Source: Shigella phage sb2
Direction: 5' to 3' (one strand)
Sequence record: PQ666540
DNA length: 64,000 nt
Part shown: positions 27,879-29,996 of the stretch, piece after piece
Layout of the letters: every line of letters begins with the position of its first letter
Position numbering within the stretch: position 1 is the first letter of the stretch
Program-made: the position numbers and the translations under genes
The notes under the pieces: generated by a model
Database searches by the model: none
Told to the model about the DNA's origin: nothing
Seen by the model: only the letters and a program-made list of their open reading frames with translations

Positions 27879-27909
27879 TTTGTGTTCCTCATGTTATGTC
27901 AGTAAGATT

Positions 27910-27939
27910 ATTATAACACAACACGAGGGACTTGTAAAC
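27910..27939 (-). promoter_or_regulatory. early sigma70-type promoter (GTTTAC -35, TATAAT -10)
   Basis: Minus strand GTTTAC-18 nt-TATAAT followed by GAGGA ribosome-binding site and ATG of the 96-aa ORF. Confidence 0.55.
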
Positions 27940-29996
27940 TACATCTTGAACTTTTTAGACATTCCGTTGATGTTAACCAAAGAAGCCAAGATTTGAGAAA
28001 CTTCGTTTTCCTCTTCTTTTGATTCTTCTACAAGGAATTGATTAAACCCAGCCATTGGACGAACTTCACCAGTTTCCATTAGATGATCGCCATCATATAC
28101 CGATTCTTCTAATTGTTCAGAAGGAGGAACGATTGTGCCTTCGATTAGATACTTATTATAAGCAGTTTCTTTCATCATGTACGTGCTCACTTTATTAATC
28201 TTCAGCAAAATTCCACGCGGTAGAATAACTTCAGCTTCTGATGGAAATCCTGATAAATGACCTGGAACGATAACTTTGATTCGCTCAGCCCCTTTAATTA
28301 CCATACCTACACTAGTTTCAGCATCTTCATTAGCATATGCAGAATGACTACCCATATGCATTAAATCTTCAGCATCAACAGAACCTTCTCCTTCACCAGA
28401 AAATACTGCGCCGGAATCATCTAGAGCCATATAGTTTTTACCATGCTCACCGAAGATATTTGGTTTAAGCGATGTTGATACGAAGTTCTTGAAATAGAAC
28501 ATTTTATTTTCAATATTATGACGTAAAGTTTTAAAAGTAACTTCTTGACCACGATAAAGCGTAGTTCCCGGAGGAAGAACTGATCCTTTGGCGAATGCAG
28601 AATCCAGCGTCTCGATGTGTTTAATAGCTCGTTCCATATATTCTTCACGGGTAGAATCCGGTTTACCTAAAAGGAACGAGTTCATTTCAACATATGAATC
28701 TGCACAATAATCTTCAATTACATCAGACTCAGCCTGAGTTAATCCTTTTGGAGTTACTTCGGTGCTTGCGTATTCATATGCCTGAGCAGCAGATTCATTA
28801 ATCAATTTATAAATGCCATTCATGACAAATTGAATAATAGCTACCTTTTCGTCTGGTGCGGCTTTAGAACCTTTAACTAAATCATTGATAATTTTCTTAA
28901 TAACATCAAAGCTATTAGAAATATTAATGTCAGCGAGATCGCTCAAAATTTTATCGGTTTTATAATCAAAGAATTCTTTATTCTTTAAATATTCTTGAGA
29001 ACCTTGATGTGTTATATCGCTCTGCAGTCTGATAGACGGATCACGTAAACGTGCATTGGCCAATGCAATATGATTTCGGAAGCTTTCTAGTTCATAATCG
29101 TTAGATTTAAAACGAGAAGCACTTCTCATACCACCGATAGCTCCTTTGCCGAAGTTTGAACCAATCTGAATAACGCCAGAGTTCATTGGTCCTTCTGCTT
29201 TATATACCGGAACTTTAGATTCAAACTCTTGATATTTCTTAGCGGCGAAGCTATCACCCTGAAGTGAAGCATCGACAGTAGAATATTGAGCTTGTGCTGC
29301 TAATCGACGACTAATTTTAGTTTTCTGAATAACAGCTTGATCCGTGCGCTTATCATTTTCTAAAGCAATAGAAGCAGCAACAGCAACAGCTTTAGGAACA
29401 GCATTACCTGTTTTAACATCTACATAAACATCACCAACCTTTGATTCAACTTTTGTGAATAACTCAGTTGAAATAGGAGGTACACCTGGAATGTCTTCTA
29501 AATTGGCATTTTTACGGTAAACCATAATATATGCATACTTTTTATCGTAATCCCAGATTTCCTTTAAAAGAACATATCGACCTGCTCCTTTAGTACGTAC
29601 TAAACGGTCAGCAATAACTTGCATTTGACGAGCTGCGCCATTTGTTTTACTTTTTAGTACGCGGAATAGGCATGCATCAATTTTATACTGTTTCATTGTT
29701 TGAAGAGCAGTATCAAAAACAGCATTAATGACACCAATTGGATTTCCACCCAAGTTTTTAAGTTTAACTAATGATAGTTTCTCATTAACACCTATCATTA
29801 CGATATGCATCATTTTATCGCCTGGCTTAACGTTTTTATTTGTATCACCGCCAGAGGTGTATGTACAAAATCTAAATCCAGGAAGCACGCTTTCTTCACC
29901 GGCTTGAATAGCAAAAATTTGAGGTATTTTATGCTTAGGATTTAATTTAACAACCGGCGCCGAAGCGCCGTCAAATAATTCTGTAATAAGTTCCAT
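27939..29996 (-). CDS. Alt-like mono-ADP-ribosyltransferase paralog
   Basis: 685-aa ORF; shares N-terminal MELITELFD and C-terminal R-S-E-type motifs (LYRG, FVSTSL, EVILPRG) with the adjacent alt gene. Confidence 0.8.
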   Translation of the reverse strand: MELITELFDGASAPVVKLNPKHKIPQIFAIQAGEESVLPGFRFCTYTSGGDTNKNVKPGDKMMHIVMIGVNEKLSLVKLKNLGGNPIGVINAVFDTALQTMKQYKIDACLFRVLKSKTNGAARQMQVIADRLVRTKGAGRYVLLKEIWDYDKKYAYIMVYRKNANLEDIPGVPPISTELFTKVESKVGDVYVDVKTGNAVPKAVAVAASIALENDKRTDQAVIQKTKISRRLAAQAQYSTVDASLQGDSFAAKKYQEFESKVPVYKAEGPMNSGVIQIGSNFGKGAIGGMRSASRFKSNDYELESFRNHIALANARLRDPSIRLQSDITHQGSQEYLKNKEFFDYKTDKILSDLADINISNSFDVIKKIINDLVKGSKAAPDEKVAIIQFVMNGIYKLINESAAQAYEYASTEVTPKGLTQAESDVIEDYCADSYVEMNSFLLGKPDSTREEYMERAIKHIETLDSAFAKGSVLPPGTTLYRGQEVTFKTLRHNIENKMFYFKNFVSTSLKPNIFGEHGKNYMALDDSGAVFSGEGEGSVDAEDLMHMGSHSAYANEDAETSVGMVIKGAERIKVIVPGHLSGFPSEAEVILPRGILLKINKVSTYMMKETAYNKYLIEGTIVPPSEQLEESVYDGDHLMETGEVRPMAGFNQFLVEESKEEENEVSQILASLVNINGMSKKFKM

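What the first reader, a model, noticed from the sequence alone, without database searches (positions are those of the whole stretch)
27886..27940. Conserved promoter-plus-leader cassette, copy 1 (upstream of the 96-aa alt.-3-like ORF)
A roughly 54-nt intergenic segment here is nearly identical (about 51/54) to one at 43614-43668. On the minus strand it reads GTTTAC, 18 nt, TATAAT, then a leader ending in CATGAGGA and the start codon. The same promoter and 5' UTR therefore drive two unrelated genes (this ORF and alc). Conservation extending beyond the -35/-10 boxes into the leader suggests a shared regulatory RNA element, or a site for homologous recombination between the two loci.
Basis: seen in the sequence. 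Interest (0 to 1): 0.45.

Follow-up and report, generated by a model that had tools for sequence, protein, structure and literature searches.

The report
Early promoter inside a ribosome-site-masking hairpin
Two unrelated early genes of this T4-type phage (alc and alt.-3) are preceded by the same 54-base cassette, in which a strong host-type promoter sits inside a hairpin that should hide the gene's ribosome-binding site in RNA arriving from upstream but not in RNA started at the promoter itself; this is a variant of known T4 regulatory cassettes, not a new kind of element.

Summary
A 54-nt minus-strand segment at 27886-27939 (between an Alt-like gene and alt.-3) recurs at 43615-43668 (between rnlA and alc) with 51/54 identity, and no shuffle reproduces it. 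The window is a Tequatrovirus. The pair is present in about 499 sequenced relatives, T4 included, where the copies match at 53/54.

The shared segment is more than a promoter consensus. TTTACA-17-TATAAT with TGn is embedded in a 15-bp hairpin. The 5' arm is the promoter spacer. The -10 box and predicted start site lie at the apex. The 3' arm is the leader including the Shine-Dalgarno GAGG. RNA started at the promoter lacks the 5' arm and is unstructured. Read-through RNA pays an extra 6-10 kcal/mol in this window (6-15 across lineages) to expose the SD.

At alc this architecture is kept, with different stem sequences, in at least nine further lineages (permutation p<1e-5). At alt.-3 only Tequatrovirus has it. 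Polymorphisms shared by the two loci indicate ectopic exchange.

My best reading is a PeSL-type cassette acting as a promoter-specific translational gate, the early-gene mirror of T4 e/soc/49/I-TevI. The function is inferred, not shown. I rate it a new variant of a known kind, of moderate interest.

The parts
27886..27939 (-). Cassette copy 1 (54 nt), filling the whole gap between the Alt-like gene's stop codon (TAG at 27939-27941, whose G is the first base of the cassette) and the alt.-3 leader.
27933..27938 (-). Copy 1 -35 hexamer TTTACA.
27910..27918 (-). Copy 1 extended -10: TGT followed by TATAAT. It lies at the apex of the hairpin.
27914..27928 (-). Copy 1 5' arm CCTCGTGTTGTGTTA (promoter spacer, containing the anti-SD CCTC).
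27887..27901 (-). Copy 1 3' arm TGACATAACATGAGG (leader, with SD GAGG at 27887-27890).
27903..27903 (-). Copy 1 predicted transcription start (an A, 7 nt after the -10). This is inferred from promoter geometry and has not been measured.
   Evidence: conserved CTTAC block
27588..27878 (-). alt.-3 (96 aa, DUF5498), the gene served by copy 1.
27939..29996 (-). Alt-like ADP-ribosyltransferase paralogue (685 aa) directly upstream. It is a source of read-through RNA.
32078..32085 (-). T4 late-promoter motif TATAAATA just upstream of the first alt gene (start codon at 32057). It is the likely origin of late read-through RNA entering copy 1.
27562..27583 (.). Bidirectional intrinsic terminator between gene 54 and alt.-3, marking the end of the minus-strand transcription unit.
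43615..43668 (-). Cassette copy 2 (54 nt), between rnlA (stop TAA at 43672-43674) and alc.
43662..43667 (-). Copy 2 -35 hexamer TTTACA.
43639..43647 (-). Copy 2 extended -10: TGT followed by TACAGT.
43643..43657 (-). Copy 2 5' arm CCTCGTGTTGTGTTA.
43616..43630 (-). Copy 2 3' arm TGACATAACATGAGG (SD GAGG at 43616-43619).
43632..43632 (-). Copy 2 predicted transcription start (A). This is inferred.
43104..43610 (-). alc (Pfam ALC). Two in-frame ATGs lie at 43610 and 43607, and the T4 annotation uses the second.
43672..44832 (-). rnlA (RNA ligase 1), the upstream gene and a source of read-through RNA.

Best explanation
The 54-nt repeat is a composite early-promoter cassette of the PeSL type (promoter-early stem-loop). 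A strong sigma-70 promoter (TTTACA, 17 nt, TGn-TATAAT) is built into a 15-bp hairpin. The 5' arm is the promoter spacer and carries an anti-Shine-Dalgarno CCTC. The -10 box and the predicted start site lie at the apex. The 3' arm is the leader and includes the Shine-Dalgarno GAGG. RNA that arrives from the upstream gene (alt or rnlA) contains both arms, so the ribosome-binding site of alt.-3 or alc is locked in a stem. RNA initiated at the embedded promoter starts between the arms, lacks the 5' arm, and has a free ribosome-binding site. The cassette would therefore restrict translation of these two early genes to transcripts made from their own early promoter. This mirrors the way T4 restricts e, soc, 49 and I-TevI to late-promoter transcripts. 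It may also attenuate read-through.

Historically, the architecture is native to the rnlA-alc junction of Tevenvirinae. In Tequatrovirus the alt.-3 junction has come to carry the same cassette in place of a different promoter cassette, by ectopic recombination or gene conversion between the two loci. Occasional exchange between the copies has continued.

Shown here: the repeat, the promoter match, the predicted hairpin, its cross-genus covariation, and the two-locus history. Inferred: the start site, the existence of read-through RNA, and the translational effect.
For: Repeat and promoter.

Hairpin: both window copies and both T4 copies fold at -23 to -29 kcal/mol in an 81-nt context, with z of -4.2 to -4.9 and 0 of 200 shuffles as stable. 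RNA from just after the -10 onward folds at only -1 and -5 kcal/mol, with z about 0.

SD accessibility: the predicted cost of exposing the SD in read-through RNA is 14.2 kcal/mol (alt.-3) and 8.9 (alc). From the predicted +1 it is 4.2 and 2.3. In seven other lineages the figures are 6.4-15.4 against 0.9-5.5. Cassettes without the long hairpin show about 2-4 in both contexts.

Conservation with compensatory change: the rnlA-alc spacers of Gelderlandvirus, Karamvirus, Jiaodavirus, Bragavirus, Dhakavirus, Kanagawavirus and Winklervirus, and of three metagenomic lineages, keep GTTTACA, then an anti-SD arm, then the -10 in the loop, then an SD arm. The stem sequences differ between lineages. Each folds with z of -3.1 to -7.1. 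Own-arm duplexes average -18.9 kcal/mol against -10.5 for arms swapped between lineages, with permutation p<1e-5.

Within Tequatrovirus: 9 variants give 99.3% of cells paired. Four pairs change on one side through wobble, and the only break is at the terminal pair. The T4-type stem has 3 G-U pairs and is 6-9 kcal/mol more stable as sense RNA than as antisense.

Timing in T4 (PMC9697503 supplements): alt is middle RNA and late protein. alt.-1 and alt.-2 are middle RNA. alt.-3 is early RNA and early protein. rnlA is early RNA and late protein. alc is early in both. So the temporal class switches at the alt/alt.-3 cassette at the RNA level and at both cassettes at the protein level.

Read-through source: the late-promoter motif TATAAATA at 32078-32085 drives the alt genes toward copy 1, with no predicted terminator at the cassette.

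Precedent: SD sequestration relieved by an internal promoter is established for T4 e, soc, 49 and I-TevI (PMC3014915).

History: alt.-3 junctions in six other genera carry a different cassette with a mini-hairpin inside the spacer. The same polymorphisms occur at both loci in Tequatrovirus.
Against: No transcription start, read-through transcript or translation measurement was available, so the gate is a prediction.

Other early promoters in this window (-35 hexamers starting at 36282, 40343 and 51623) also have stems straddling the -10 box, but those stems do not reach the SD. The stems may therefore have a more general function, with SD masking as an extra or a by-product.

Outside Tequatrovirus the stems are nearly all Watson-Crick, and in some lineages the antisense strand folds as well or better. 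RNA-level versus DNA-level selection is therefore not settled there.

Mosigvirus has no SD-masking hairpin at alc. Gaprivervirus VR7 and metagenomic locus L037 have a terminator-type hairpin instead, so the hairpin is dispensable. No late promoter motif was found close upstream of rnlA, so the source and timing of read-through into copy 2 are unclear. No harm from late Alc synthesis is known.

The RB49 PeSL stem-loop that has been tested behaved as a terminator or attenuator (PMC2839356).
Confidence: 0.5

Rival explanations
1. It is a PeSL in the original sense only. The stem-loop attenuates or terminates transcription coming from upstream, so each gene is driven by its own promoter, and the conserved cassette mainly serves as a substrate for homologous recombination. 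The overlap with the SD is incidental.
For: In RB49/phi1 PeSLs the stem-loops most often lie between the -35 and -10 or overlap the -10. One reduced lacZ expression as strongly as a strong terminator, and PeSL pairs recombine into mini-circles (PMC2839356). PeSLs are also described for the T4/PST pair (PMC4122927). Other early promoters in this window have -10-straddling stems that do not touch the SD. Polymorphisms shared between the two loci show that exchange occurs. G28 and VR7 have duplications at the alc junction.
Against: Neither cassette is called terminator-like. The stems are followed by A-rich tails rather than U-rich ones in every lineage, and the loops are 12-24 nt long, which is a poor fit to intrinsic terminators. 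In ten lineages the 3' arm always contains the SD and the 5' arm always starts with the anti-SD directly after GTTTACA, which a pure attenuator would not require. Recombination between the two direct copies 15.7 kb apart would delete ligase, gene 31, pseT and other genes, so it cannot be the selected outcome.
Confidence: 0.25
2. The inverted repeat acts at the DNA level. It could help open-complex formation at the -10, form a non-template-strand hairpin, or be the binding site of a dimeric regulator that switches the early promoter off.
For: The symmetry is centred on the -10 box and start site. It is shared by several early promoters in the window regardless of the SD. Outside Tequatrovirus the stems are almost purely Watson-Crick and fold equally well on either strand. 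The mechanism that shuts off T4 early promoters is not fully understood (PMC3014915).
Against: The stem sequences differ freely between genera while pairing is kept, which is not expected for a protein operator. The T4-type stem has three G-U pairs, and its polymorphisms preserve pairing only on the sense strand. This would give A-C mismatches on the other strand of a cruciform.
Confidence: 0.12
3. It is a regulatory structure or protein or sRNA target inside the leader of the promoter's own transcript.
For: The 17 leader bases from the predicted +1 to the SD are identical in both copies.
Against: The leader alone has no significant structure. The conserved leader bases are accounted for as the 3' arm, and no Rfam family matches. 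RegB's GGAG target is absent from the T4-type SD.
Confidence: 0.05
4. There is no function beyond the promoter. The extra identity simply reflects a recent duplication or conversion that has not yet diverged.
For: The two copies exchange sequence, which by itself keeps them alike.
Against: Both copies are retained at 90% identity or more in about 499 genomes whose flanking genes have diverged. The hairpin architecture at alc is kept across genera with compensatory changes.
Confidence: 0.05

Closest known systems
PeSL (promoter-early stem-loop) cassettes of T4-like phages (Arbiol et al. 2010, PMC2839356; Comeau et al. 2014, PMC4122927)
   Same: Both are short intergenic composite elements with a sigma-70-type early promoter, a stem-loop placed between the -35 and -10 or overlapping the -10, and an SD and start codon at the 3' end. 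Both occur as several similar copies per genome and are implicated in recombination between copies. The consensus reported for T4/PST, TTTACW-N17-TAYWAT, fits both copies here.
   Different: PeSL stem-loops were interpreted as terminators or attenuators, and the papers do not discuss translation. Here the stem is long (15 bp), always includes the SD, and lacks a U-tail. The two copies flank conserved genes 15.7 kb apart rather than ORFans in a hyperplastic region. The two copies are almost identical, whereas PeSLs generally share only a consensus.
Translational gating of T4 e (lysozyme), soc, 49 and I-TevI by RNA hairpins with an internal promoter (reviewed in Uzan and Miller 2010, PMC3014915)
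   Same: In both cases the SD and/or AUG is sequestered in a helix in long transcripts from upstream. A promoter located in the DNA that encodes the 5' part of the structure gives transcripts that lack the inhibitory arm and are translated.
   Different: The known cases use late promoters and keep late proteins from being made early. Here the internal promoter is an early sigma-70 promoter, so the predicted effect is the reverse: early proteins are not made from middle or late read-through RNA. This has not been tested experimentally.
Extended T4 early-promoter consensus (UP element, -35 GTTTAC, TGn, -10, start-site block; Hinton 2010, PMC2988021)
   Same: GTTTACA, the 17-nt spacer, TGn, TAnnnT and the CTTAC start region are all present.
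   Different: The generic consensus does not specify the spacer or the leader. Other early promoters in this window share none of the spacer or leader sequence.

Membership tests
PeSL cassette | Sigma-70-like early promoter with -35 and -10 boxes at about 17-nt spacing. | tested here: met
   Copy 1 is TTTACA-17-TATAAT (11/12, with TG). Copy 2 is TTTACA-17-TACAGT (9/12, with TG)..
PeSL cassette | Stable stem-loop adjacent to or overlapping the promoter (between the -35 and -10, or over the -10). | tested here: met
   A 15-bp stem encloses the -10 box. Folding gives z of -4.2 to -4.9 and 99.3% of cells paired in 9 variants.
PeSL cassette | SD and start codon of the downstream gene at the 3' end, in an intergenic location. 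| tested here: met
PeSL cassette | [quoted passage not shown] | tested here: inconclusive
   The 40 nt upstream are 67.5% and 75% A+T, against 63.9% for the whole window. Both stretches lie in coding sequence.
PeSL cassette | The stem-loop terminates or attenuates upstream transcription. | not testable with these tools
   There is no U-tract and no terminator-like call. A reporter or in vitro assay is needed.
PeSL cassette | Similar copies recombine and are associated with indels. | tested here: met
   The same polymorphisms occur at both loci. The cassette type at a given locus differs between genera. G28 has a 351-bp tandem duplication and VR7 a partial alc duplicate at this junction.
T4 promoter-in-hairpin translational gate (e/soc/49/I-TevI type) | SD and/or AUG base-paired in transcripts from upstream. 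| tested here: met
   This is met by prediction only. The SD GAGG lies in the stem. P(unpaired) is 0.02-0.15 and the opening cost is 8.9-14.2 kcal/mol.
T4 promoter-in-hairpin translational gate (e/soc/49/I-TevI type) | A promoter inside the structure, so that its transcripts lack the 5' arm. | tested here: inconclusive
   Promoter geometry puts +1 at 27903 and 43632, between the arms, and the resulting leader is unstructured. The start site has not been measured.
T4 promoter-in-hairpin translational gate (e/soc/49/I-TevI type) | The internal promoter is a late (gp55, TATAAATA) promoter. | tested here: not met
   The internal promoter is of the sigma-70 early type, and there is no TATAAATA in the cassette. 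The cassette therefore works like this family but is not a member in the strict sense.
T4 promoter-in-hairpin translational gate (e/soc/49/I-TevI type) | Demonstrated difference in translation between long and short transcripts. | not testable with these tools
   There is only indirect support: in T4, alc and alt.-3 are early proteins while alt and rnlA are late proteins.
Intrinsic terminator | GC-rich stem with a short loop followed by a U-run. | tested here: not met
   No terminator is called at either cassette. The loop is 12 nt and the tails are ACACAAAAUG and CUUUAUGAUG.
Rfam RNA families | A match to a curated covariance model. | tested here: not met
   There are no hits over either cassette at E<=1.

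The most novel reading that the evidence does not exclude
Tevenvirinae use an early-promoter-embedded hairpin as a temporal translation gate. Alc, and in Tequatrovirus also Alt.-3, is made only from its own immediate-early transcripts and is silenced on the abundant middle and late RNAs that read through from rnlA or alt. This is the mirror image of the classic late-gene gating of e and soc. The whole promoter-plus-gate module is portable and moves between loci by ectopic gene conversion, carrying its regulatory logic to a new gene.
Probability: 0.4. Interest if true: 0.55.

Novelty: new variant of a known kind. Interest (0 to 1): 0.42.

Why it matters
If the gate works as predicted, it adds a simple post-transcriptional rule to T4's temporal programme. 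A gene embedded in a long multi-phase transcription unit can be kept strictly early by putting its promoter inside a hairpin that masks its ribosome-binding site. It would also show that PeSL-type cassettes carry translational as well as transcriptional logic. They could then transplant that logic between genes by short-tract recombination, which bears on how T4-like genomes rewire expression. Practically, the 54-nt module is a compact, insulated promoter-plus-RBS part. The claim can be tested directly with a handful of reporter constructs or with existing T4 ribosome-profiling and 5'-end data.

Tried and rejected
- **RNAalifold on a MAFFT alignment of 23 cassettes** returned no structure. The stems sit in different registers relative to the -35 and SD in different genera, so I replaced it with an alignment-free own-arm versus swapped-arm duplex test.
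- **A covariance model built from the Tequatrovirus variants** (R1) did recover the alc cassettes of other genera and a third site in the window. Its alignment mis-registers several stems, so I did not use it for pair counts.
- **Strand asymmetry (G-U versus A-C)** as a test of RNA-level against DNA-level selection is clear for Tequatrovirus but mixed across genera, so it is not decisive.
- **IMG/VR** gave only 5-6 close relatives per gene.
- **Miller et al. 2003**, which lists T4 promoters, is not in the library. I therefore could not check whether these two promoters or the hairpin are already tabulated there.
- **Full-text searches** for the sequence itself and for SD sequestration at T4 early promoters found nothing relevant.
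- **Rfam** gave no match.
- **RegB processing** was considered and rejected. The T4-type SD is GAGGA, without RegB's GGAG target.
- **A middle promoter** was considered and rejected. There is no TGCTT MotA box at -30.
- **Strict concerted evolution** was considered and rejected. Copies in one genome differ at 0-4 positions, no less than copies between genomes. The pattern is purifying selection plus occasional exchange.
- **Distant alc homologues** (Acinetobacter Ac42, Aeromonas phiAS4, Cronobacter S13) lack the hairpin.
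Full report
**1. Observation**

On the minus strand the window carries the same 54-mer twice: GTTTACAAGTCCCTCGTGTTGTGTTAYARTARTCTTACTGACATAACATGAGGA. The copies lie at 27886-27939 and 43615-43668. They match at 51 of 54 positions. The three differences are transitions in or next to the -10 box (TATAATAA vs TACAGTAG).

No further copy exists in the window at up to 3 mismatches, and no shuffle gave any match. Similarity stops exactly at the G of GTTTAC and after GAGGA, and the flanks are unrelated.

Copy 1 fills the whole gap between an Alt-like ADP-ribosyltransferase gene (27939-29996) and the 96-aa alt.-3 (27588-27878). 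The G of that gene's TAG stop codon is the first base of the cassette. Copy 2 lies between rnlA (43672-44832) and alc (43104-43610).

**2. Context**

The window is a Tequatrovirus, about 99% identical to phages NBEco003 and pSs-1. The 54-mer hits 499 phage records at 997 places, which is two per genome across the genus.

T4 itself has both copies, upstream of alt.-3 and upstream of alc, and they differ at one base. So this is a fixed, genus-wide feature of a very well studied genome and not a peculiarity of this isolate.

**3. Anatomy**

The promoter scan scores copy 1 as TTTACA-17-TATAAT (11/12, with TG). It scores copy 2 as TTTACA-17-TACAGT (9/12, with TG). Neither cassette is called terminator-like.

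The shared sequence between and after the hexamers is self-complementary. The spacer CCUCGUGUUGUGUUA pairs with the leader UGACAUAACAUGAGG, giving 15 contiguous pairs, three of them G-U. The -10 box and the predicted start site lie at the apex. The Shine-Dalgarno GAGG forms the last four pairs.

In an 81-nt context both window copies and both T4 copies fold at -23 to -29 kcal/mol. The z-scores are -4.2 to -4.9, and none of 200 shuffles is as stable. RNA beginning just after the -10 is unstructured, at -1 and -5 kcal/mol with z about 0.

Standard promoter geometry puts +1 at the A of the conserved CTTAC block, at 27903 and 43632. That position lies between the two arms.

The predicted cost of exposing the SD depends on where the RNA starts:

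| RNA | alt.-3 | alc | Seven other lineages |
|---|---|---|---|
| Read-through from upstream | 14.2 kcal/mol | 8.9 kcal/mol | 6.4-15.4 kcal/mol |
| Started at the predicted +1 | 4.2 kcal/mol | 2.3 kcal/mol | 0.9-5.5 kcal/mol |

Cassettes that lack the long hairpin show about 2-4 kcal/mol in both contexts.

**4. Is the hairpin selected?**

I fetched the rnlA-alc junction from other genera and from metagenomes. The sources were:

- Gelderlandvirus (Melville)
- Karamvirus
- Jiaodavirus
- Bragavirus (phiP4-3)
- Dhakavirus (QL01)
- Kanagawavirus (CIP9)
- Winklervirus (LC53)
- three metagenomic lineages

In all of these the spacer is about 55-62 nt and has the same layout. It reads GTTTACA, then immediately an anti-SD arm (CTCC or CCTC type), then the -10 in the loop, then an arm ending in the SD. 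The stem sequences themselves differ, for example UCUCCAUUUGGUU/AACCAAAUGGAGA, UCCUCAUCAG/CUGAUGAGGA and ACCUCUCAUUUU/AAAAUGAGAGGU. Each folds with z of -3.1 to -7.1.

A sequence-based alignment puts the stems out of register, so RNAalifold found nothing on it. I therefore used an alignment-free test. The spacer of each lineage was duplexed with the leader of every lineage.

- Own pairs average -18.9 kcal/mol and swapped pairs -10.5 kcal/mol.
- None of 100,000 permutations reached the observed total.

Within Tequatrovirus, 9 distinct variants keep 99.3% of cells paired. Four pairs change on one side through wobble (C-G to U-G, G-U to A-U, U-A to U-G, U-G to U-A), and the only break is at the terminal pair.

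The T4-type stem is 6-9 kcal/mol more stable as sense RNA than as antisense. In other genera the stems are almost purely Watson-Crick, so this strand test is uninformative there.

The architecture has limits. Mosigvirus alc carries a different cassette. Gaprivervirus VR7 (L017, and metagenomic L037) has a terminator-type hairpin with the -35 in its loop, followed by a partial alc duplicate. Distant alc homologues in Acinetobacter, Aeromonas and Cronobacter phages have no such hairpin.

**5. History of the second copy**

The alt-to-alt.-3 junction was examined in six other genera: Dhakavirus, Mosigvirus, Marfavirus, Kanagawavirus, Karamvirus and Gelderlandvirus. It is also about 58 nt long and carries a GTTTACA promoter.

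Its structure is different, however. A 4-5-bp mini-hairpin lies wholly inside the spacer, with a GGA-containing loop and its own compensatory changes, and the SD is left free.

The alc-type cassette at alt.-3 is therefore specific to Tequatrovirus and matches that genus's own alc cassette. The simplest reading is that one junction acquired the other's cassette by ectopic recombination. The architecture points to alc as the donor, although the exact tract is ambiguous because ATGAGGA is common to both leaders.

In Mosigvirus the reverse seems to have happened. Its alc cassette resembles the alt.-3 type and is about 70% like Mosigvirus's own alt.-3 cassette.

Exchange has continued within Tequatrovirus. 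The same variants are found at the alc locus in some genomes and at the alt.-3 locus in others:

- position 16 G/A
- position 27 T/C
- the linked pair at positions 29 and 32 (G to A)
- the transversion at position 33 (T to A)

Copies within a genome differ at 0-4 positions. This is purifying selection with occasional conversion, not strict homogenisation.

A crossover between the two direct repeats, 15.7 kb apart, would delete ligase, gene 31, pseT and other genes. Only conversion-type outcomes are therefore viable.

**6. Mechanism proposed**

I propose a promoter-specific translational gate. RNA that enters the cassette from upstream contains both arms and masks the SD. RNA started at the embedded early promoter lacks the 5' arm and is translated.

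Several lines support this.

- There is a precedent. The same logic is established for T4 e, soc, 49 and I-TevI, where a promoter inside the inhibitory helix yields translatable RNA (PMC3014915).
- There is a plausible source of read-through RNA. A late-promoter motif, TATAAATA at 32078-32085, sits just upstream of the first alt gene. No terminator is predicted before the bidirectional one at 27562-27583.
- Published T4 time-course data fit (PMC9697503 supplements). The temporal class switches at the alt/alt.-3 cassette at the RNA level and at both cassettes at the protein level:

| Gene | RNA class | Protein class |
|---|---|---|
| alt | middle | late |
| alt.-1 and alt.-2 | middle | not given |
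| alt.-3 | early | early |
| rnlA | early | late |
| alc | early | early |

None of this measures the gate directly. The start sites, the read-through and the translational effect are all inferred.

**7. Rivals**

- **PeSL attenuator or terminator.** Arbiol et al. describe PeSL stem-loops as most often lying between the -35 and -10 or overlapping the -10, and showed terminator-like activity for one of them (PMC2839356). Comeau et al. extend PeSLs to T4/PST (PMC4122927). Three other early promoters in this window (-35 hexamers starting at 36282, 40343 and 51623) have -10-straddling stems that do not reach the SD, so a more general role for such stems is likely. Against a pure attenuator here, there is no U-tail in any lineage, the loops are large, and the SD is invariably included. 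Both functions could coexist.
- **DNA-level role.** This could be promoter opening or an operator. It is disfavoured by the free covariation of stem sequence and by the sense-strand G-U pairs in Tequatrovirus. It is not excluded elsewhere.
- **A structure inside the promoter's own leader.** This is not supported.
- **Neutral persistence of a recent duplication.** This is contradicted by genus-wide retention and by the cross-genus covariation.

**8. Comparison with what is known, and novelty**

By its defining features the cassette is a PeSL. It has an early promoter, an overlapping stem-loop, an SD and ATG at the 3' end, similar copies, and evidence of exchange between copies.

It works like the e/soc/49/I-TevI gates but is not a strict member of that group, because the internal promoter is early and not late.

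I found no description of SD masking at alc or alt.-3, or of its conservation, in the reviews and PeSL papers I could read. I could not access Miller et al. 2003, so prior mention cannot be excluded.

My verdict is a new variant of a known kind. It is of moderate interest and directly testable.

Noticed in passing
window 36615-36674 (-): A third early-promoter hairpin that masks an SD, with an unrelated sequence: GTTTACA...UUCCUUUGU/ACAAAGGAG, about 9 bp and -12 kcal/mol. It lies upstream of a 110-aa ORF (ATG at 36615-36617), whose size matches T4 30.8. It was picked up by the covariance model built from the alc/alt.-3 cassette.
   Followed up: partly
window, minus strand, -35 hexamers starting at 36282, 40343 and 51623: Other GTTTAC early promoters have 8-14-bp inverted repeats in which the spacer pairs with the first transcribed bases. 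The -10 box sits in the loop, but the stem stops short of the SD. Stems that straddle the -10 look like a general property of early promoters in this phage.
   Followed up: partly
window 27939-29996 and 30000-32057 (-): There are two tandem full-length (685-aa) Alt paralogues. T4 has one alt plus the degenerate remnants alt.-1 and alt.-2 of the second copy, and the remnant keeps the C-terminal codons that abut the cassette.
   Followed up: partly
L024-L029, about positions 440-500 (alt to alt.-3 junctions of Dhaka-, Mosig-, Marfa-, Kanagawa-, Karam- and Gelderlandvirus): A second conserved cassette type. A 4-5-bp mini-hairpin lies wholly inside the promoter spacer, with a GGA-containing loop (for example ACACA-TGGA-TGTGT, CCACA-CGGA-TGTGG, CATCC-ATGGAA-GGATG), and it shows its own compensatory changes. 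Its function is unknown. A similar one sits upstream of alc in Mosigvirus (L019, L047-L050).
   Followed up: partly
L030 (phage vB_EcoM-G28) 3985-4687: An exact 351-bp tandem duplication of the rnlA 3' end, the cassette and the alc 5' part gives this genome three cassette copies and a truncated extra alc ORF. Gaprivervirus VR7 (L017) likewise has a partial alc duplicate before alc.
   Followed up: partly
L017 about 290-362 and L037 about 440-512: In Gaprivervirus-like phages the -35 (GTGTACA) of the promoter upstream of alc sits in the loop of a GC-rich, U-tailed hairpin (AAGGGG-TGTACAAG-CCCCTT-CTTTCT). This is a terminator-promoter overlap that differs from the SD-masking type.
   Followed up: no
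window 27562-27583: A perfect 9-bp GC-rich hairpin with a GAAA/TTTC loop lies between the convergent genes 54 and alt.-3, and was called as a terminator on both strands.
   Followed up: no
window 43605-43610 (-): alc has two adjacent in-frame ATGs. The ORF list starts at the first (168 aa), while the T4 record annotates the second (167 aa). Spacing from the SD is 5 and 8 nt respectively.
   Followed up: no
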